A stretch of DNA of 57,527 bases, counting the filler, from Streblomastix strix (Eukaryota), in assembly GCA_008636045.1 (NCBI GenBank). It is 3 parts of 3 records of this genome, joined end to end, with 100 filler letters (N's around TTAATTAATTAA, not from the genome) between each part and the next. Parts side by side here need not be neighbours in the genome. Positions count along the whole stretch, not along the records: positions 1 to 19,115 come from SNRW01000544.1; 2 more parts are not named here. The stretch is one strand, 5' to 3'. Positions within the stretch are counted from its first letter, which is position 1; each line of letters opens with the position of its first letter. Shown piece by piece: positions 9,329 to 39,069 of this stretch. The notes below the pieces were generated by a model. It was not told the origin of the DNA. It did no database searches and worked only from the letters and a program-made list of their open reading frames with translations. Position numbers and translations under genes: made by a program.

Positions 9329-9467
9329 ATGCAAAGGTTGATGGAGTTGGCTGATGGATTTCATTGATAGAAACCTAAAATATGTTGATGAAATCGTTAG
9401 TGAAAACATGAATATTTGACTGTTCCGAGTATTCTGAGTGTTCCGAGTAAAATGGGTTCTATGAAAA

Positions 9468-10668
9468 ATGCCAGTCGATCCGCCAAATAGTCGAAATATG
9501 AAAAAAACATTCAATAATGCTTGTAGATTCACAAGTACAATAGATGGAATGTCAACAATTACTGGATCATCATTTGTCAAGTCAGGAGCAGATAATACTG
9601 TAATTTTACTTGGAGCTGGTGGCACTAAACCAATTGCAGAGTTTGGAGGATGCATTGATGATTCGAATTACGTGAAAAAAATAGGCTAATCTCTATAAGT
9701 TATTAGAGGATATATTAGAAAAAGTATGTAAGATGTGGATGATGAATCATCCGAAGAAGATGAAAATTATATAACAAAAGGTGAAGTTGAAACCTAATAT
9801 GTTTCACTAGGTGATAGTTAACAAATCATCGTAATTAAATCATTTTATGATAAAGTTACCGCTAATGGATTCGTTAAAAAAGATGGTACAAATCAACAAG
9901 TATTATTAACGAATGGAACAACGAAACTACTTTCAGAATTTACTGGTATTCCAACTGATTTATCAAATTATTATATTAAAAGTGAAACTTATTCACAAAC
10001 TGAATCAAATAATAAATTTGTAAGATTGGAAGGTTCAATTCAATAAACAATAACAGGAAGATTAAAATATATTAGTCCATTTGGTTAGACATATGATGAG
10101 ACATAAGATCCAGTTGAAAATACATATTTGGCTTAGTCAGAAGTTGATGCAAAACTAACAAGTTATGTTAATACTGTTAATAATTAATCAATAAATGGAA
10201 CTAAGACATTCAATGCAAATGTTAATGCTACTTGATTTGAGAAAACAGGTAAAGATGATACATTAGTCTTATTGGCTGGAGGAGGAGATATGTTATTATC
10301 AGCATTTGGAGGATTAGAATTAGTAAATTTTAATTATACGAGTAATGTAGTTAGTCCAACTTCAATAATGTCACTAAAATATTATAGATGTGGATCACTA
10401 ATCAACTTTTACGGTTATATATATGGGTAATGGAGCAGGAGCATCTGATGCATCAGTTGCTGTTTGCACACTTGAAAGTGCTGGATTTCCAAAGTATTTA
10501 TTTTATGCATATGATATAGTTTTTGCTGGCTCTGCACCACATGTCGCAAATTTCAGATTTGGAACTGATGGAAAGGTTACGAAAACTATTAAAGCACTAA
10601 GTGAAACAGCAGGTTTGGCTGGTGACGCATCAGCATACATCAATGTTACATATCCTGCAGCAAATTGA
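9468..10668 (+). pseudogene. Viral fibre/tail-fibre-like repeat protein (in-frame TGA and frameshift; probably 5'-truncated)
   Basis: Three repeats: TITGSSFVKSGADNTVILLGAGG, KVTANGFVKKDGTNQQVLLTNG, NVNAT*FEKTGKDDTLVLLAGGG; TGA at 10233-10235; frameshift in the TA run at ~10416-10423 before the beta-rich head (...YINVTYPAAN*). Confidence 0.7.
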
Positions 10669-10741: not shown

Positions 10742-12361
10742 ATGAGTTCAGTATACTTAGATGAAGCATTATTAGACGCAGCAGGATTATCAGATTTTCC
10801 AGAATTATACGCATACATTCGTGAGAGATATTAAGATCCAATACCACCAGCATAACGAATACTAATCGGAGAGTAAACTTTATAAAAATAAGTGAAAGAT
10901 AATGATGATATTCTATTTAATACAAACGAAGAGTTCGTACCACCAGTTCCAAACGCTACTTAAATATTAGATTTAAGTTCATAGCAAGAACGATCTAGTT
11001 TCTTATCATCAAGTGGATCAGATCCATAATTAATTGTGTATAATGATCCTGCTACATTAACCGCGTCATATGAAACTACTGGATTATTTCCCAATGGATA
11101 TTTATTCAAAAGTTATCCTGAAAAAGCGAGACCAAAAGCTGGTGATAAAATGATTGGATTAGTTGGAATAGATACAACGAATAAAAATAGTATATTTTGT
11201 TATATCGATTAGAATGGACCATTTATCATCAGTACATCATAGATTCTATCAAATACTGCACTCGTAATAAACGTAACCTATTATAAAATATATGAATATT
11301 CGAAGATAATAAATTATGATGCGAATAATGATGGACGAGTTGATATAATGGATACATAGCATATTAATAGCAAAGGAACATTCGAATCACAATCACATGT
11401 GTATGAAACTGTGAAAAAATAAACTTGTTTGATCGCAACTGGATTGCTTGGTGATGTTAAAGTAAATTATTTGAATAGTGATATAAAATTATAGGATGAA
11501 TTGGCAATCTATAAAGCGGATAGAGCAGCATTCTTCATTAAAGAAGATTCATTTATTACATTTAGTTTTGGGGCAAAATTAGGATAAATAATATAATAAT
11601 AAGCTAATTCAGAAAATCTATAAACAATTCATAGATTATTTTCGACAATAACTTAAAAATTACTTCCTCCAAATACGAAATACATGCCAGTTCGTACTGA
11701 ATAGTAAGAATATACTGCGATGTGTTTGTTCAAAGATATCTATGATAAATCATTAGCGGTAGAAGTAGCTGTAAGTGAAGTATTGAATAAGTATGATTGT
11801 GAATTTAAAGGAAAATATTTACTCGATAACTATAAGAATCCAACATCAAATGAAGAGTCAAATGAAGAACCAAACGTATCTCCATCAGATCCAAAAGAAC
11901 CTGATTCTCATATTGATGAAGTAATAACAAAACGTGATAAATTATTAGCATTATCTTCACAACCAATATATACAATTACTAACGTATTCAATTAAATTTA
12001 ACTTATTGCACCATTTGATCAAGGTGGGCATGCCTATAATACATTCTATATTGTTGATGATGAGACTTGCAAAGTATGTGTATTCAATCTATATTTTGAA
12101 ACAAAAGGATAAGCAATAAGTACATAAGAAATTGGTAGGATTCCAGATTCTATATTACCAGCTGATGGTAAATGTATAGGATTTCCTGCATCTGTATATA
12201 GAAATGCTGGTGGATATATTAATTGGTTGGGTACGAGCTATTTCGGATTCAATTAATAATATAAAATGCTATATTGCTTTTTGCAAAATGTTCAAGAAGT
12301 TATTCCTGAATCATCAACTGATATATATAGGTATTGTGCAAGTGGAATATATTACTTATGA
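10742..12361 (+). CDS. Viral hypothetical protein, 539 aa, beta-rich, with a DxNxDGxVD loop; possible virion/fibre protein
   Basis: Uninterrupted intronless ORF with TAR=Gln, MSSVYLDEALL...YCASGIYYL-TGA (1620 nt). Confidence 0.7.
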
Positions 12362-12831: not shown

Positions 12832-14553
12832 ATGAATCGCTAGCTTATGAAGACACATGTGCCTAAAATACAAACCAATTTGGAAACAATCGAGAATTTG
12901 TTAAAGACTTTCACAATTCAACCATTTTAGAACGATGGATAACACCATTTCTCAATCAAAGAGATCAAACCAGAATCATAAATGCCATCATTATTTGATA
13001 AGGAAGTTATTATCAGTTTGACCGATCCAGATCATGACGTAACATAGATTTAAAATTCATTAATTACACTTGATTTTACGTTGAATCTATTGTTCGATAA
13101 TAAATTTGATTAATTTAGCGAATCTTATAGAGCTGGAACATTTATATTTGTTGGATTAAAATCATCTGCATAACTAATTCGCGAATATGTTCTGTATCAT
13201 CGAGGAAGAATAATTGATGGATCCCTCTAGAACGATTCAACTACCGAATAATTTATCTATAATACTATTAAACCCAAATCAGAGAAAAATAATAATAGAT
13301 TCGTTCATTCACTCTATGAAAATGTACGTAAAGATGATATATCGCATTGTGGAAAATATCTTAATATCAAGGATATTTCAGATGCATTTGCTCCACAAAC
13401 TGCTGCTCCATATGTTATGCCAGTAAATTTCTCTGTCTCAATTCCACTAGATGATTTACTCATTTTCTCAGCAATCTCTGAATATCCTAACGCATTATTT
13501 GGAGATCTCAAAATTAAATTCAAAATCAATCAAAACGCTTTCGTATTCTGCCAAATTGATCCAGTAATTTCGATGGCTAGATATTACACAATTAATAACG
13601 ATGAATTATTGAGCTCATGTTAAGATAAGCTTAAGGATATTGATCTATTCTTCCGCAACTGGAGTCTCACATTCTAATATACTAACATGTTCATATAAAT
13701 TGGATGCACTGCTGATTTGGTTACAGGAGTACGTGCTGAAGAGCTAACTCCATCATGATTAAAGAATCTAGTTTGTGATATTAGACCAGTAACAGAATCT
13801 GTAAGAAATTATGTCATTACTGCAGCTGTTGCAAATATGTGTGGATATAAAGCTTCACAAAAATGTCTTAATCATGTGCGATAATTCTATTCAACTCGTC
13901 CATTTGTTGTATCTGCATAACGTATTGAAACATAGGCATTTCCAAGTGGTGCTACTCTCACTGGATTGCGTACTTCATAAAATATACCGCTATCTCATGT
14001 TACTGATATGTGCTTACTATTTCCTAAAGATGCTAGACAAACAACTTGCTTCGAAAATCCATGGTATTAAAATATGTAATTATCCACTTTAGGTAGAAAT
14101 TTCCCAGATTTCCCCATGAATACACTTAATGAATAATTTTTCACAATGTAGATGACTGAAAATAATCTCGATAATATATTCGAAGCTATTGATGAATATG
14201 AAGATTCATTAACAACTCCAAGAGGAAATTTGATTAGAAGATACAATTCTGTAACTGATTATACGTCATTCTTTATTATATTATAATGTGAACGTAATAG
14301 CAATCGTGTATTAACATTTGATGGATTAGATACTTAAAATTAAAATACTTCAATTGAATTACATGGATATCTAATTTACTAAGGTGCAGTTGATACTTAT
14401 TATTATGTTGATACTAATGGAAAACTTCCACCTCCTCCAATTCTGCGCACAGTTCATGATTCATTCCGGCTATTTAGCCCTGCAGATGGAGTATCATGCG
14501 TCTATGATACAAATCATTCATTCGATGAGGTTATTGGATAAGTAACTGCTTGA
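12832..14553 (+). pseudogene. Putative major capsid protein (double jelly-roll, PLV type) with one in-frame TGA
   Basis: 573-codon intronless frame MNRQLMKTH...FIFVGLKSSAQLIREY...IPLDDLLIFSAISEYPNALFGDLKIKFKIN...TCFENP...LQCERNS...FDGLDT...QVTA-TGA, one TGA at 13756-13758. Size, beta-rich content and linkage to a packaging ATPase support MCP; the fold is inferred. Confidence 0.7.
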
Positions 14554-15559: not shown

Positions 15560-16450
15560 ATGACATCGGAAACACCATCTACTCGTCAAATAGGCTCGAA
15601 TAACGAAAATTTTACAATTGGTTCTTACAATGGTTTCGAAATAATGATACGTGATAATGATGGCTTTGTTAATGCTTCTAAGTTAGTCCAATAGATTAAT
15701 GAAAGAGAACATACATCTAAGGAATTACGTAATATTACACGTTCACCAGTCTTTGTAGAATACAAATAATATCTAGAGAAAATTAGCCCGTTCAATTTGA
15801 ACGGACCCCTTTGTTACTTACTTCCGACTGTTTTTATGAATAATGTTAGAGGAACATACGTTCATAGGTAATTATTGAATATTATCTGTATAATATCATC
15901 AGTTAAATAATTACATCATGTCACAACTATAATGGACAAAATTAACGAAAGAGTTCATGAAGAACACAATGCTGATCCCAATACTCCTATAGGTACTCAT
16001 ATTGATAATGTTAACATTGAATTCATGATTTATCAATAAGATAAAATTGATTAATTAAGATTAGATAATAAAGGTTATAATAATAATATACATTAACTAG
16101 TACCAAGAGCTGTTCCAAATGGTAAAGAAAGAACATATATATTGATAGTTGAAAAGGTTAGCGAAGATGAATAGCTTGAAGATTAGCAGGAAATTCATAT
16201 TACAAAATGAATCAGAAGAATTAATAGAAAAGACTTACGTCCCGCAAAAATAGAACGATATCGTCGTGAATCATTACTTTTTGTTGATAATTTACCAATA
16301 GATATGATGATTAATGAAAAAATTAAAGAAACTCTATAATCAAGACAAGATGTAAAAATATGATCAACTCATTATACATTCCCAGAAGACTAATTTGATT
16401 TCATAATTGATATAATATAAGCTGTAATTAACACAGAAAGAGCACATTGA
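15560..16450 (+). pseudogene. KilA-N domain DNA-binding protein (two in-frame TGAs in the C-terminal part)
   Basis: KilA-N hallmarks YNGFEIMIRDNDGFVNASKL...VRGTYVHRQLL; then coiled coil and PRAVP; TGAs at 16208-16210 and 16361-16363; final TGA 16448-16450. Confidence 0.85.
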
Positions 16451-16923: not shown

Positions 16924-17224
16924 AACTGTGCAGGTGTGCAGGATTAGGACCCCTAAAATTGATAAAATGATAGTCGGTCGGTCGCTCGCTCGGATTTGCT
17001 TTTGAGATAAGCGACTGAAAAAAATATATATTAACTAATTCATCAATCGTATTATTTTTATCAATATTCCCTATCTCTACTTATCCTGCACAAAATGACC
17101 AAAAATAGGGGAAAATTAAGGAAGTTTTATTAATGCTGCTACTTAAATGTATTCTTTAGCGAGCGACCGACCGACTTTCATTTTGGCAAAATTAGGGGGT
17201 CCTATCCTGTACACCTGCACAGTT
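16924..17224. mobile_element. MITE-like element with ~67-bp imperfect terminal inverted repeats inside element A
   Basis: Left arm AACTGTGCAGGTGTGCAGGATTAGGACCCC...AGTCGGTCGGTCGCTCGCT (16924-16990) pairs with 17158-17224; GC-rich arms between convergent viral genes; no clear target-site duplication. Confidence 0.75.
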
Positions 17225-17296: not shown

Positions 17297-18070
17297 TCAA
17301 ATAACTCGTACCATTGTTCCATCATTATTATACTGTACCAGTAATGCTTCTTGTTTGCCTAATTGCACATATTCATTCCATAATGTTTCTTTAACTAATG
17401 GAATGCTTGATTAATAGAAGAATAAATTGAATTTTTATCTGTTGAATCCACCGAAAAAGTATATTGTATCTACATTAGATTTAATGCTAGCATCCAAACC
17501 AATTATATCTTATAAGCATAGGAAGTAAGTGATTCTGGGCTATCTATTTTTGAATAGATTCTTGTATATTGGATTGATTTTATTCTTGAAGATACTCATT
17601 GCATCATCGAACAGTACTATTGTATGTGAAAATTTGATTGCAAAGTCCTTTATTCCTATGTGAGATAATATATCTTTTTTAGATTCATCATTCATTTATT
17701 TTTCTAATTTCCTTTCAATAACCTCATCATAAGCTTGTTTTCATTCGATCAATTCATCTAATGCTTCATTCACTTCTGCATATGGAACTATCTTAGTTGG
17801 GATAGTGATTAAATCTTTCATTTTTTTATAAGTTATATCATTATTGCTATCAGTAACATATTTGAATAGTGTATAACATTTATTAGGCAATTAGCTCAAT
17901 TTGATTAGCTCTTTGAATACATTATATGACTTACCGCTTCCACGTTATCCTATGTGCAGATTGATAGAATTATATGAGAAATTTATTTCTTTATGAATCA
18001 TTGATTATACTTCATGTTTATTAGTTTTCAATTTACTAAGCAATTGATCCACATATGCTGTCAAGGACAT
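17297..18070 (-). pseudogene. A32/FtsK-HerA family genome-packaging ATPase (element A), one in-frame TGA
   Basis: Walker A GQRGSGKS, Walker B TIVLFDDA, NRQPRITYFLCLQ (Arg finger and Gln sensor), IKSNVDTIYFF; TGA at 17741-17743; 257 codons. Confidence 0.9.
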
Positions 18071-19115: not shown

Positions 19116-19215
19116 NNNNNNNNNNNNNNNNNNNNNNNNNNNNNNNNNNNNNNNNNNNNTTAATTAATTAANNNNNNNNNNNNNNNNNNNNNNNNNNNNN
19201 NNNNNNNNNNNNNNN
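19116..19215. other. Artificial gap linker (44 N + TTAATTAATTAA + 44 N)
   Basis: Exactly 100 nt with a six-frame standard-code stop cassette; identical to 38327-38426. Confidence 0.97.
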
Positions 19216-19644: not shown

Positions 19645-20676
19645 ATGAGTTTATCAGAAATAAAGCAAAAATAGTTTGATACTTATAATAGGTTAGATGA
19701 ATATAAAACGAAACCATTAACCCCTAAATCTATCTTTCTTATTAACGCAAACTATTATATTGTAGGAACTGTTGGAAGTGGTAAAACAACATTAATGAGT
19801 AAACTAATTGTACAATATAAACATATAATTAATCCTTATATACTATACTTCTCAAATTTAGGACCGGATGAAAGTATGTCGTTAAATATGAATGATAAAA
19901 ATATATCAATTAGTAATATAACTTACGATGAAGCGATGATCTTCTTACCATAGTTCGATAAGATTAAATACAAGGTTAAATAGATATATACTTATTGGAA
20001 ATTAAAGCAAATGAAAGTTAAGTATAACAGTGATTACATTAATTAACTTAAATAGAATATGTTCGATGTAAATGAATTAAAAAATGAAGAAACGTATTAA
20101 TAGTTTATAACTTGAATGAAAGAGTAATTTAAAATCTATTGTATTGAAACAATTAACGAATATAGCTAACTTACAAAAATAATGTAATTTATTATACCTT
20201 CGTTAGTTTAAAATGTTAGTTATGAGATTAGATTGAAAATAACTGATACATAAGAAATAGATGAAGATGGAGTTACTATAATTAAAACACTAAAATTTCC
20301 TATACTTTAAAATGCAAAATTATTATCTACGTTAATGATCTTTGATGATATTGGTTCTAATACAGATATATAAAGATATACTTCATAGTTATCTTGTACA
20401 ATTACTCATCTCGTAAGTGATAGTAAACATTCTAAAAATACTTTATTCTTTGTTGCATAACGTATGTAATACTTGTTTAAAACTGCTCGAATATTATGTC
20501 ATGTGATTGTCCTTGGGGTTAATTTAGGAGATAGTGATTTGAAATAGATTTATAATGAGAATAATATAAACATACCAACAGAATAAGAGTTAATTATATT
20601 ATGTAACTCATTGAATAAGTATGAATTTATTGTTATTAATAAGTGGTTATAAAGATTTGAAATTATTAAATAATGA
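19645..20676 (+). pseudogene. A32/FtsK-HerA family packaging ATPase (element B), one in-frame TGA
   Basis: NYYIVGTVGSGKTTLM (Walker A), TLMIFDDIG (Walker B), DSKHSKNTLFFVAQR, KTARILCHVIVLG; TGA at 20113-20115; 343 codons. Confidence 0.85.
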
Positions 20677-20841: not shown

Positions 20842-21903
20842 GACTTAAAAGTCGCCAAGCTATGCTTGGATTAACTTGATTAATTATTAATAGCATATGA
20901 ATCACAAACGTATACACAAAAATCATCCCGTAAACTTAACTTACACATTATATTAATTCTTACATGTCCATCAGGATCAAATTAACAATCAATAGGAATT
21001 GCACCATTCTAACATATAGGGTACCCATATACTTTTTATGCAAACATAACAGCATTTAAAGGTATATTATAAGGTGTTCCAGTGAATTTTGGTTTTATAT
21101 CATCTTTAACGACTGAGAATAAAGTATATTTAGATTGACATGCAGTATTAGGGTCAGAATGAGTTACTTATACCGATAAATATGCTCTTCCATTATTGGT
21201 TGTAAATGAACCCCATACTAATTGTTCATACATTCCATATGCAAGTGCTTATTTGATAGCATTTTCAATAGGTATAGGTGCTATAATTTAATTGTTGAAT
21301 TTAAGTGATGTACAATCGAAATCAATAATTAGACTCTTATAATCATATGCTTAATCTTTTTTTTTGTATCCTAAATTATGATGAAGTTGATCCAACTTTC
21401 TATACACCATCTCTATCTGTAGGGTCAGTGATACATCCAGTGAGTACAAAACTATCCCAATTTGCTTTATTTTTCATTAACCTAATACCTTAATCTAATA
21501 TAATATCACTCGGTTCAATAATAAATTATCCTATTGTATGAGGATAGTATTTGGGTAAAAAATCACCTACATCAGTTGTATCACCATTAGCTAGTAGAAT
21601 CTAATTATCAGTGCCATCTGTTTTTATACTCTTGTTTGCTACTATAGGTTATATAAATGATTTGCTTCCTGCTACTGTTTGATCGGTATCTAATAACATT
21701 AAATTAGATAAATAAATATCCTTAGTTTTCATGTATTAACTGAAATAAGTAAACAGTTTAATAATCTTTGTATCAATGAAAGAGGTTAATTATCTTTATA
21801 GTTTCTCTAATTACTTCACTTCCTCTTATTTTTATTATATCTCTTACAATTATTTTCGTATATAAGTTATCTCCTCTTCAGATGGTTCGATTAATGATTC
21901 CAT
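20751..21903 (-). pseudogene. Viral fibre-like protein of element B (frameshifted; 3' end uncertain)
   Basis: MESLIEPSEEE coiled coil, then DTDQTVAGSKSFIQPIVANKSIKTDGTDNQILLANG (same repeat class as 9468-10668); +1 shift in the A9 run at 21357-21365; beta-rich C-terminus. Confidence 0.65.
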
Positions 21904-23159: not shown

Positions 23160-23782
23160 TTATTTTTGTCAGGGGTTAATCAGAACTACTAAGTATTGAA
23201 GAAATCGGCAATATTTTAATAAGTATGACAAACTCGGAAAAATAAACCGTAATATTTAAGCGAGCCTCTTTTTGATTAACCCGAAAAAATTTATCCATAC
23301 AGATTTCCTACAGAAATAATCAGAATGACTATTTGTAATGATTTATGATGAGAATTAATTAAAGTTAAGAACGATGAATTGTATAGTAAAACACTTAAAA
23401 TAGCGTAGAAAATTGATGTGTTAAAAGTAGACATGTAGGGCGAGCTTAATCCTGAAGGGTTATTTTGAATGATTTGCTATACTTTTTAAAAATGGTGCCA
23501 ACTTCTTCAATAATTAGTAGTGCTATCAATAAAACTGTAGAATTTTTTGATTTTATTTCATAATTTTATTTAATGATAATTTATTTGCAATTAAAACAGA
23601 AAAAAAGAGAAACTAATAAAATTAAATATATATTTATTAAAAAAATTTATAAACATTAATGTACTAGGAGTTATGAAACACTCTGTAGATAGATCAAAAT
23701 CAATAAATTCATATTTTATAATAAACAATTTATTTATGCAGATATAATAAATAATTTTATGGCATAAAAAATATTATTGAGC

Positions 23783-35572: not shown

Positions 35573-35881
35573 TAGCGATCAAAAAATTGATTTTAGAATA
35601 AAAAATAAAAAATGCAGAATTTGGATTATTTTTGCATAAATTTGAGTTAATTTATATCTTTAAAAAATTTATTTTAATTAATTCGATATTATAAAGTCAA
35701 ATATTAATAGATTTAACCAGTTACACGGTGCTAAAAAAGAAAGCTATTATTAGATGAATTTAGTTACCAAATTAATTAATATAAATTTATTTAAATATAA
35801 ATTAATACTCATTTATGCAAAAATAACATAAATTTTTCATTTTTTTATTTTTTTATTCTAAAATCAATTTTTTGACCGCTG
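35573..35881. mobile_element. AT-rich foldback/MITE-like element with long imperfect inverted arms
   Basis: TAGCGATCAAAAAATTGATTTTAGAATAAAAAATAAAAAATG from 35573 matches the reverse complement ending ...AAAATCAATTTTTTGACCGCTG at 35881; pairing extends ~120 bp inward. Confidence 0.65.
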
Positions 35882-38007: not shown

Positions 38008-39069
38008 TCATTTCTTTTCGTCTGGCTTTCCTTGTGTCTTTGTTTGAGTCTTTGTTTATGATTGAATTTGAGAAGGAAGTGAAGATTTGGAATCTTGATT
38101 TGATTTCTCTTTCTCTGAATGTCCTTCTTTTGATCCTTTCTTTTATGCATCACTTATTCCTAAGTTAGATGTTGATACTATAAGTTCTCTGCTATTCGGA
38201 TTCTCTTTTTCTTTTTCTTTTTCTTTCTGTTTTTCTTTTTCTTATTCTTTTTTATTCACACTATCATCTTTCTATATTCTTGCTTTCACTTATTCTTTTT
38301 ATACAATTCCATCTCTTAGTAATATTNNNNNNNNNNNNNNNNNNNNNNNNNNNNNNNNNNNNNNNNNNNNTTAATTAATTAANNNNNNNNNNNNNNNNNN
38401 NNNNNNNNNNNNNNNNNNNNNNNNNNAATAATTTGATTCCGCTCTGTGTCGCCTGAGAATTGTTAATGGAGAAGAATAGTAAAATTAATGTGAATTTTTA
38501 ATATAAAATAAATAAGTAATATAAAATACTGTTGCTGCTGCTGTTTTAAGATGGTTCAACTTCATATTCTTGAGTTTGCTCCAAAATAATATTTTCTTCA
38601 ATTTCTTGTTCAAATGGAGGAATTGCATCAATAATATGCGTAAGAACATCGCGAATCATCTGAACGCAACAATGACAAATAATAATGAGTAATAATAATT
38701 TAGATTCATACTTACACCTCTTTGCGAGAAAACTTCGTTCTTTATCGAAGCATTTTTCTTAATTCTTCTTCGTTGATCACTTCGATCATTTCATCGCAAA
38801 ATCCTTGGCGAATTGCTCTGCAGATCAGCTCAATTATTCGGCGAATGCAACGCGATTGCATAACTTCATTATCAGACCGAAGTATTAATACCATATATCT
38901 CAATTCTGATAACTGAAAGTTGAACGTTAGGAAATAAAAATAAAAATAAACGGAAAATTTTATTTTTGCGCACATCAAGCTTCTGTGTATACGACCATGT
39001 TGTTGGTGTAAAAATTTCTTCTACATCGTATTCATACAGACAATTTGTATTCTTAAAGCCTGTCCTCAT
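38008..39069 (-). CDS. Hypothetical protein, multi-exon, apparently spanning the assembly gap
   Basis: Exons MRTGFKNTNCLYEY.../LSELRYMVLILRSDN.../MIRDVLTHIIDAIPPF...; the other side of the gap gives a same-strand K/E-rich C-terminus ending GKPDEKK-TGA. Confidence 0.55.
38327..38426. other. Artificial gap linker (44 N + TTAATTAATTAA + 44 N)
   Basis: Identical to 19116-19215. Confidence 0.97.

What the first reader, a model, noticed from the sequence alone, without database searches (positions are those of the whole stretch)
9468..10668. Phage-tail-fibre-like repeat shared by both viral elements
Seen: a repeat of the form Q(T/S)I.G.K.F...(I/V).A..F(V/I)K..G....(V/I)LL..G occurs three times here and once at ~21580-21690 in element B, each time followed by a different beta-rich head. 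Inferred from recall: it resembles shaft repeats of bacteriophage tail fibres, notably in Bacteroidota phages. Since termite-gut oxymonads carry Bacteroidota ectosymbionts, this may be a phage-derived attachment module exchanged between eukaryotic viral lineages with swappable heads.
Basis: partly seen in the sequence, partly recalled or inferred. Interest (0 to 1): 0.75.

Follow-up and report, generated by a model that had tools for sequence, protein, structure and literature searches.

The report
Swappable-headed fibre of oxymonad endogenous virus
This stretch is the broken tail end of a fibre gene, likely a virus attachment fibre, carried in many copies by likely viral elements in a termite-gut protist's genome; its shaft repeat also occurs in gut-bacterial phage proteins, and different copies end in different, likely receptor-binding, tips.

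Summary
The repeat is real. A 48-residue unit occurs three times at 9507-10307 and once at 21559-21702 (-); the two elements lie on different contigs. The interval is the C-terminal part of a 5'-truncated, broken copy (one stop, one frameshift) of a roughly 1,000-residue modular fibre gene of Streblomastix strix (code 6), with hundreds of relatives. The unit's first half matches the neck of lactococcal phage TP901-1 receptor-binding protein (Pfam BppL_N) and is widespread. The whole unit occurs in a crAss-like gut phage lineage (up to 62% identical) and was found only in Bacteroidota among three phyla sampled (10/350 versus 0/349 and 0/350, seeds excluded). Each fibre has one C-terminal head, not one per repeat. 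At least 10 head classes (at most 36% identical) sit on shafts up to 97% identical, so heads are swapped. Head models weakly resemble phage/adenovirus knobs. A trimer model could not be run. No ectosymbiont donor was found. Phage-like fibres with BppL_N are already described in Polinton-like viruses, so this is a new variant of a known kind.

The parts
9363..9506 (.).
   Evidence: depth jump and loose ends at 9506/9507; other copies continue with fibre-coding letters
9507..9644 (+). Shaft unit 1 (insertion type, N-terminal part lost)
9645..9797 (+). Acidic spacer module (YVKK.G...Q.I.G..R...EEDE.YITK)
   Evidence: sequence; recurs in relatives
9798..9941 (+). Shaft unit 2, complete 48 aa; first half BppL_N/beta-prism-like
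9942..10163 (+). Second spacer module (DLSNYY...RLEGSIQQTITGRLKY...EVDAKL)
   Evidence: sequence; recurs in relatives
10164..10307 (+). Shaft unit 3 with in-frame TGA at 10233-10235, which contigs of other copies do not share
10308..10668 (+). Single C-terminal head, about 120 aa, class 2 of at least 10; frameshift near 10415-10423; predicted knob-like beta-barrel
   Evidence: model of intact homologue P0033
10742..12361 (+). Intact 539-aa partner gene with two confidently modelled and one likely head-type domain; conserved neighbour of the fibre gene
   Evidence: 18 pairs of consecutive locus tags, counted by eye
12832..14553 (+). Putative major capsid protein gene, 573 codons, one in-frame TGA; identity inferred from size and position, not shown
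   Evidence: no Pfam; no IMG/VR relative; follows the partner gene in relatives
15560..16210 (+). KilA-N domain protein
   Evidence: PF04383 E 1.3e-9, above cut-off
17297..18070 (-). P-loop ATPase with one in-frame TGA, likely packaging ATPase
   Evidence: Walker A/B-like motifs by eye; only a weak Pfam hit (E 0.009)
19645..20676 (+). Element B P-loop ATPase (one in-frame TGA), no BLAST similarity to that of element A
20904..21900 (-). Element B fibre-like gene, frameshifted: helical start, one shaft unit (21559-21702), a middle module and a C-terminal domain with no BLAST hit among the session's proteins

Best explanation
The interval is the broken C-terminal part of a modular fibre gene, likely the trimeric attachment fibre of an endogenous, likely Polinton-like virus of Streblomastix strix. 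Shown: intact relatives of about 900-1,100 aa consist of a conserved N-terminal segment, runs of YTK.E.D.LL..KADK repeats, several 48-aa units with exchangeable spacers, and one C-terminal head. Heads of at least 10 classes sit behind near-identical shafts, with the switch point just after the last unit. Inferred: three chains interlace, with the first half of each unit forming a short triple beta-helix like the TP901-1 neck. The N-terminus would anchor to the capsid and the knob-type head would bind a surface glycan. Recombination between virus copies within the conserved last unit would exchange heads and so change receptor specificity, as between lactococcal phages TP901-1 and Tuc2009. The unit shares ancestry with Bacteroidota-phage fibre modules, more likely phage-to-virus than the reverse; donor and date are unknown. 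The copy in the window is a dead relic.
For: Family: 119 of 120 listed homologues are named S. strix and the other is the window's own; all 120 listed of 867 unit-profile hits are S. strix. Neck: the best 7 of 11 PDB hits are TP901-1 BppL or its chimeras, E 0.003-0.005, profile columns 2-25 on residues 36-59, which is linker plus beta-prism neck (PMC3893620, passages). BppL_N passes Pfam's cut-off in 3 of 15 full-length relatives. PHROG 10305 'tail fiber protein' hits 5 of 15, on the helical repeats. Head: the top Foldseek rows for the model of intact homologue P0033 are lactococcal RBPs, adenovirus fibre heads and reovirus sigma (best E 0.009, prob 0.96-0.99); the partner gene gives the same fold (E 5e-4, prob 1.00). 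Swapping: 139 of 3,474 different-head pairs have adjacent 118-aa shafts >=85% identical while heads are <=36% identical; 38 of 96 fibres have a nearest shaft neighbour with another head. Independently assembled contigs leave the window at 10313 and 10319 into two other head classes, and a contig from another study joins shaft to the window's head. Phage side: 21 of 47 IMG/VR loci match all 48 residues at 48-52%; the genome of one has a Crassvirus capsid above cut-off. Bacteroidota 11/351 versus 1/350 and 1/351, seed genomes included. S. strix code-6 viral elements are reported in PMC10120064 (passages).
Against: No fold match of the fibre model reaches E<=0.001 in PDB or BFVD, and the model is poor (mean pLDDT 52.8). 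The window's own pieces hit no fibre or tail family in Pfam or PHROG and no INPHARED phage. Capsid identity was not shown, and no integrase, polymerase, penton or terminal repeats were found in the window. The 21 best phage loci are near-identical, so one lineage. The first half of the unit is widespread outside Bacteroidota (Campylobacter, an acorn worm, unnamed metagenomes). Pair counts are not independent events, head classes were defined by identity, and a single-cell short-read assembly (recalled) can make chimeras. Bacteroidota genomes sampled were larger than the Bacillota ones listed, and the first look is capped, so the enrichment is approximate.
Confidence: 0.75

Rival explanations
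1. The fibre came from phages of the host's own Bacteroidales ectosymbionts, and its heads bind those bacteria, so virions would reach the protist by riding its bacterial coat.
For: The complete unit is found in Bacteroidota and a crAss-like phage. Streblomastix carries Bacteroidales ectosymbionts in its furrows (PMC2717939, passages). A virophage tail that binds cyanobacterial LPS has been reported (PMC12724248, abstract).
Against: No termite-symbiont title among 27 genome loci. The 12 metagenome loci match only short stretches at E>=7e-7. No head of this family has a bacterial or phage sequence match in the calls made; the crAss-like protein ends in a head related to an Alteromonas phage fibre instead.
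Confidence: 0.12
2. The unit is an old, generic fibre module shared across phages, giant viruses and Polinton-like viruses; the Bacteroidota signal reflects sampling and AT-rich composition, not a specific transfer.
For: 3,201 cluster representatives match at E<=0.001, and many of the non-Streblomastix ones shown match the first half only. BppL_N fibres occur in Paulinella PLVs (PMC12220804, passages). The tree is unresolved and does not reject one Streblomastix clade (p-AU 0.054).
Against: One crAss-like unit is 62% identical and colinear with a Streblomastix unit over 48 residues. 5 of 351 Bacteroidota genomes have matches reaching column 37 or beyond, against none in the two other phyla sampled.
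Confidence: 0.3
3. The head/shaft mosaics are assembly chimeras or decay products of dead copies rather than functional exchange.
For: Many listed relatives are partial, fused or deleted; the window copy is truncated and broken.
Against: The switch sits at one position, right after the last unit, for all 10 classes. Read-derived contigs show the alternative joins. Heads within a class are intact and conserved (median 76% identity).
Confidence: 0.1
4. The genes are domesticated host surface adhesins, no longer virion parts.
For: Hundreds of copies; capsid identity not shown here.
Against: Fixed order of fibre, partner gene and capsid-like gene, near an ATPase and KilA-N; many copies decayed; no intron was needed to read the window's frames.
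Confidence: 0.05

Closest known systems
Lactococcal phage TP901-1 / Tuc2009 / p2 receptor-binding proteins (BppL; Pfam PF18338)
   Same: Sequence match of the unit's first half to the neck; stem-neck-head order; predicted head fold; heads exchanged on conserved stems (PMC3893620, passages).
   Different: Fibre about six times longer, with several necks; the unit has a second half (F.K.G....VLL.GGG) that TP901-1 lacks; encoded in a eukaryotic genome under code 6.
Phage-like fibres of Polinton-like viruses and virophages (Gezel-14T Ltf; BppL_N fibres of Paulinella PLVs; DSLV2 tail proteins; Zamilon Zav_19)
   Same: Long modular phage-type fibre next to capsid genes, BppL_N included (PMC12220804 passages; bioRxiv 2022.07.28.501842 passages; PMC12724248 and bioRxiv 2023.01.23.525297 abstracts).
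   Different: No S74 chaperone, collagen, laminin-G or gp36 hit in 15 relatives scanned; ends in a lactococcal/adenoviral-type knob with at least 10 exchangeable classes in one host assembly, which I did not find described.
Tail-fibre gene cluster of a TAG-recoded crAss-like phage (185 kb; Zeta group inferred from size, PMC7886860 passages)
   Same: Colinear 48-aa unit, 48-62% identical, also directly before a C-terminal head of about 115-125 aa.
   Different: One unit per protein; unrelated head and N-terminus; tailed phage of bacteria.
Metamonada-group endogenous Maverick/Polinton-like elements of S. strix (Bellas et al. 2023, PMC10120064)
   Same: Same host and genetic code; capsid-sized gene and ATPase nearby.
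   Different: The main text has no occurrence of fiber, fibre or tail; I did not match this copy to their capsid clusters.

Membership tests
BppL_N-type trimeric receptor-binding fibre | Sequence match to BppL neck / PF18338 | tested here: met
   E 0.003-0.005; 3 of 15 relatives above cut-off; window pieces alone do not pass
BppL_N-type trimeric receptor-binding fibre | C-terminal beta-barrel knob | tested here: inconclusive
   consistent top hits, none at E<=0.001, pLDDT about 60-70 in the head
BppL_N-type trimeric receptor-binding fibre | Homotrimer with interlaced beta-prism | not tested
BppL_N-type trimeric receptor-binding fibre | Binds a cell-surface receptor | not testable with these tools
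   needs binding assays
Polinton-like virus / Maverick | Double jelly-roll major capsid protein | tested here: inconclusive
   573-codon gene without Pfam or IMG/VR hit; not folded; such capsids were confirmed only by modelling in bioRxiv 2026.06.19.733378 (passage)
Polinton-like virus / Maverick | A32-like packaging ATPase | tested here: inconclusive
   P-loop ATPases in both elements, no Pox_A32 hit
Polinton-like virus / Maverick | Single jelly-roll penton | tested here: inconclusive
   the 539-aa neighbour models as head-type domains, not a penton; no other candidate identified; the element runs to a contig end
Polinton-like virus / Maverick | Integrase or recombinase, polymerase or helicase, terminal inverted repeats | tested here: inconclusive
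   none found in the window fragments; no whole genome held
Bacteroidota-phage-derived module | Complete unit in Bacteroidota phages or prophages | tested here: met
Bacteroidota-phage-derived module | Streblomastix units nested within phage units | tested here: inconclusive
   interleaved but weak; p-AU 0.054

The most novel reading that the evidence does not exclude
The oxymonad's endogenous viruses took a fibre shaft from Bacteroidota phages and keep a genome-wide library of ten or more exchangeable knob heads, with which they bind the changing Bacteroidales coat of their host and enter through its symbionts.
Probability: 0.12. Interest if true: 0.8.

Novelty: new variant of a known kind. 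Interest (0 to 1): 0.42.

Why it matters
It assigns a likely attachment apparatus (fibre plus a multi-head partner) to an unplaced group of protist viruses. It also shows phage-style head exchange among endogenous copies in one protist assembly, which gives a ready panel of natural heads for asking what these viruses bind on a cell covered by bacteria. The general idea, phage-like fibres on Polinton-like viruses, is already known.

Tried and rejected
Table 11 gives no long frames; code 6 does. No whole genome is held. The window protein found no INPHARED phage; a full-length relative found 4 weak records. One IMG/VR hit of the window protein is a giant-virus fibre matching the helical stretch only, at 23% identity, and was not counted. 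Pattern scans with the unit alignments could not be run on three occasions for lack of conserved columns. The VIA-align wide search and the Atlas look-up of the capsid-like protein were busy and never answered. The Atlas search with P0033 gave its own cluster first and a lead at 0.77 to a cluster with 15% Caudo_bapla_RBP, a lead only. A profile of all head classes was not built, so homology of all heads is open; only some classes show detectable similarity (about 28-29% over 93-95 aa). The three partner-gene domains show no sequence similarity to each other or to fibre heads, apart from read-through fusions. No RNA holder listed. No earlier findings. Treitli et al. 2019 is not held. Actinomycetota were not sampled. 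I rejected 'head after each repeat', 'A and B adjacent' and 'partner gene = penton'.

Full report
Setting. The window is three contigs of about 19.1 kb joined by N-spacers at 19116-19215 and 38327-38426. It reads under code 6. Of 120 listed homologues of the 9465-10232 frame, 119 are named Streblomastix strix and one is the window's own. Bellas et al. 2023 (PMC10120064; I saw three passages) report S. strix endogenous viral elements that use this code.

The observation. A 48-aa unit lies at about 9507-9644, 9798-9941 and 10164-10307 on +, and at 21559-21702 on -. A profile of 12 non-Streblomastix units finds these four places at i-E 1e-5 to 1e-11; 30 shuffled controls reach -1.6 bits at best. 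The three copies in element A belong to one gene. It is cut at its 5' end by a different high-copy repeat and broken by a TGA at 10233 and a frameshift near 10415-10423; contigs of other copies differ at these places. Only the last unit is followed by a head.

The intact gene. A search with the unit profile returned 867 proteins at E<=1 among 7,996 scored; all 120 listed are S. strix, many of 900-1,100 aa. They consist of a conserved N-terminus, YTK.E.D.LL..KADK repeats, up to seven profile segments with variable spacers, and mostly a 100-120 aa C-terminal head. The helical repeats hit PHROG 5004 in 13 of 15 relatives and PHROG 10305 (tail fiber protein) in 5 of 15. BppL_N passes its cut-off in 3 of 15. 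Against the PDB the best 7 of 11 hits are TP901-1 BppL or its chimeras, columns 2-25 on residues 36-59, E 0.003-0.005; that stretch is linker plus triple beta-prism neck (PMC3893620, passages). An AlphaFold monomer of an intact homologue with the window's head class is poor (pLDDT 52.8). Its top Foldseek rows are lactococcal RBPs, adenovirus knobs and reovirus sigma proteins, none at E<=0.001. The trimer could not be modelled, so trimerisation is inferred from these relatives.

Head exchange. Of 139 C-terminal tails, 113 fall into 10 head classes (39, 29, 27, 4, 4, 3, 2, 2, 2, 1). I set aside the other 26: 16 have a further shaft module before their head and 10 are fused or broken singletons. 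Of the 113, 96 had a full last unit and 70 residues before it. Among 3,474 different-class pairs head identity is at most 36% (median 22%), yet 139 pairs have shafts >=85% identical (up to 97%). Conversely, 80 of 1,086 same-class pairs have heads >=85% and shafts <=50% identical, and 38 of 96 fibres have a nearest shaft neighbour with another head. Pairs are not independent events. Read-derived contigs support the joins. In run X2 one contig follows the window from 10218 to 10319 and continues into what I read as head class 8, another leaves at 10313 into a class-0-like start, and a contig from another study (X3) bridges shaft and the window's head. Related contigs occur in runs of three studies.

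Phage relatives. The profile matches 3,201 of 1.84 billion cluster representatives at E<=0.001. Many of the non-Streblomastix ones among the top 150 match only the first half (output was cut). Of 20 looked up by name, four carry an organism: Chryseobacterium hagamense and C. taiwanense, with both halves split by an insert, and Campylobacter jejuni and Ptychodera flava, with the first half. In IMG/VR, 21 of 47 loci match all 48 residues at 48-52%. They are near-identical to each other and read under TAG=Gln (coding cover 0.12-0.25 under table 11, 0.81-1.00 under table 15). The complete 185-kb genome of one has a Crassvirus capsid above cut-off; its size fits the Zeta group (PMC7886860, passages; inferred). 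There, too, the unit stands directly before a C-terminal head. In phylum samples the profile hit 11 of 351 Bacteroidota genomes, 1 of 350 in the phylum of a Bacilli genome and 1 of 351 in that of an alphaproteobacterium; the single hits are the seed genomes. A scan seeded with the phage unit gave 27 genome loci, 19 with Bacteroidota titles and none with a termite-symbiont title. A 48-column tree interleaves Streblomastix and other units weakly and does not reject one Streblomastix clade (p-AU 0.054), so donor and direction are open.

Neighbourhood. The next gene (10742-12361, intact, 539 aa) has 144 homologues, all named ones among the 120 listed being S. strix; 18 have locus tags consecutive with a fibre gene (my count). 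Its model has two confident domains with lactococcal-RBP-head matches (E 5e-4, prob 1.00), so it is likely a second, multi-head spike rather than a penton. A 573-codon capsid-sized gene, a KilA-N gene and a P-loop ATPase follow. The capsid identity was not shown. Element B has a dissimilar ATPase and a short fibre-like gene with one unit, 55% identical to its closest family unit and 40% to the closest outside unit, ending in a domain with no BLAST hit among the session's proteins. This fits module sharing between two viral lineages of one host.

Comparison with print. PMC12220804 (passages) describes phage-like PLV fibres, BppL_N among them. Gezel-14T Ltf is virion-associated (bioRxiv 2022.07.28.501842, passages). 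DSLV2 tail proteins bind Synechococcus LPS (PMC12724248, abstract). The knob fold is common to phages, adenoviruses and virophages (bioRxiv 2023.01.23.525297, abstract). Conserved stems with unrelated heads are known for TP901-1 and Tuc2009. Searches (listings) showed no description of the S. strix fibres or their head library; supplements were not opened.

Verdict. The repeat is real, and the recalled Bacteroidota-phage resemblance holds. The thing is a decayed copy of a likely trimeric attachment fibre with exchangeable heads (confidence 0.75), a new variant of a known kind. The ectosymbiont link is unsupported but not excluded (0.12). Interest 0.42.

Noticed in passing
L002-L022 (IMG/VR): The closest complete phage units lie in crAss-like phages that read TAG as Gln, a code whose genes the TAA/TAG=Gln host could read; 48 residues cannot show that this is more than coincidence.
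   Followed up: partly
window:10742-12361: Partner gene looks like a string of head-type domains joined by short helices, with an EF-hand-like motif (named so for some homologues); a few homologues differ strongly in single domains (under 35% identity in 3-4 of 35-52 rows).
   Followed up: partly
window:9063-9328, 16924-17224, 35600-35852, 23182-23524: Short inverted-repeat pairs (41-70 nt arms, 110-260 nt apart), possibly MITE-like insertions; one lies just upstream of the truncated fibre.
   Followed up: no
window:9363-9506: Very high-copy repeat with tandem gttccgagt motifs that abuts the fibre's break point.
   Followed up: no
P0127-P0238: Between the first two units the full-length fibres carry a conserved globular insert of about 110 aa, for which no family hit was seen.
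   Followed up: no
window:52564-57525 (-): 1,653-codon open frame with Cys/Gly-rich repeats like a right-handed beta-helix surface protein, ending in a transmembrane segment (likeness recalled).
   Followed up: no
window:20904-21560 (-): Element B's middle module resembles a phage-fibre 'LPLxGGTxTG' block by eye (recalled), and its C-terminal domain has no relative among about 460 proteins held.
   Followed up: partly
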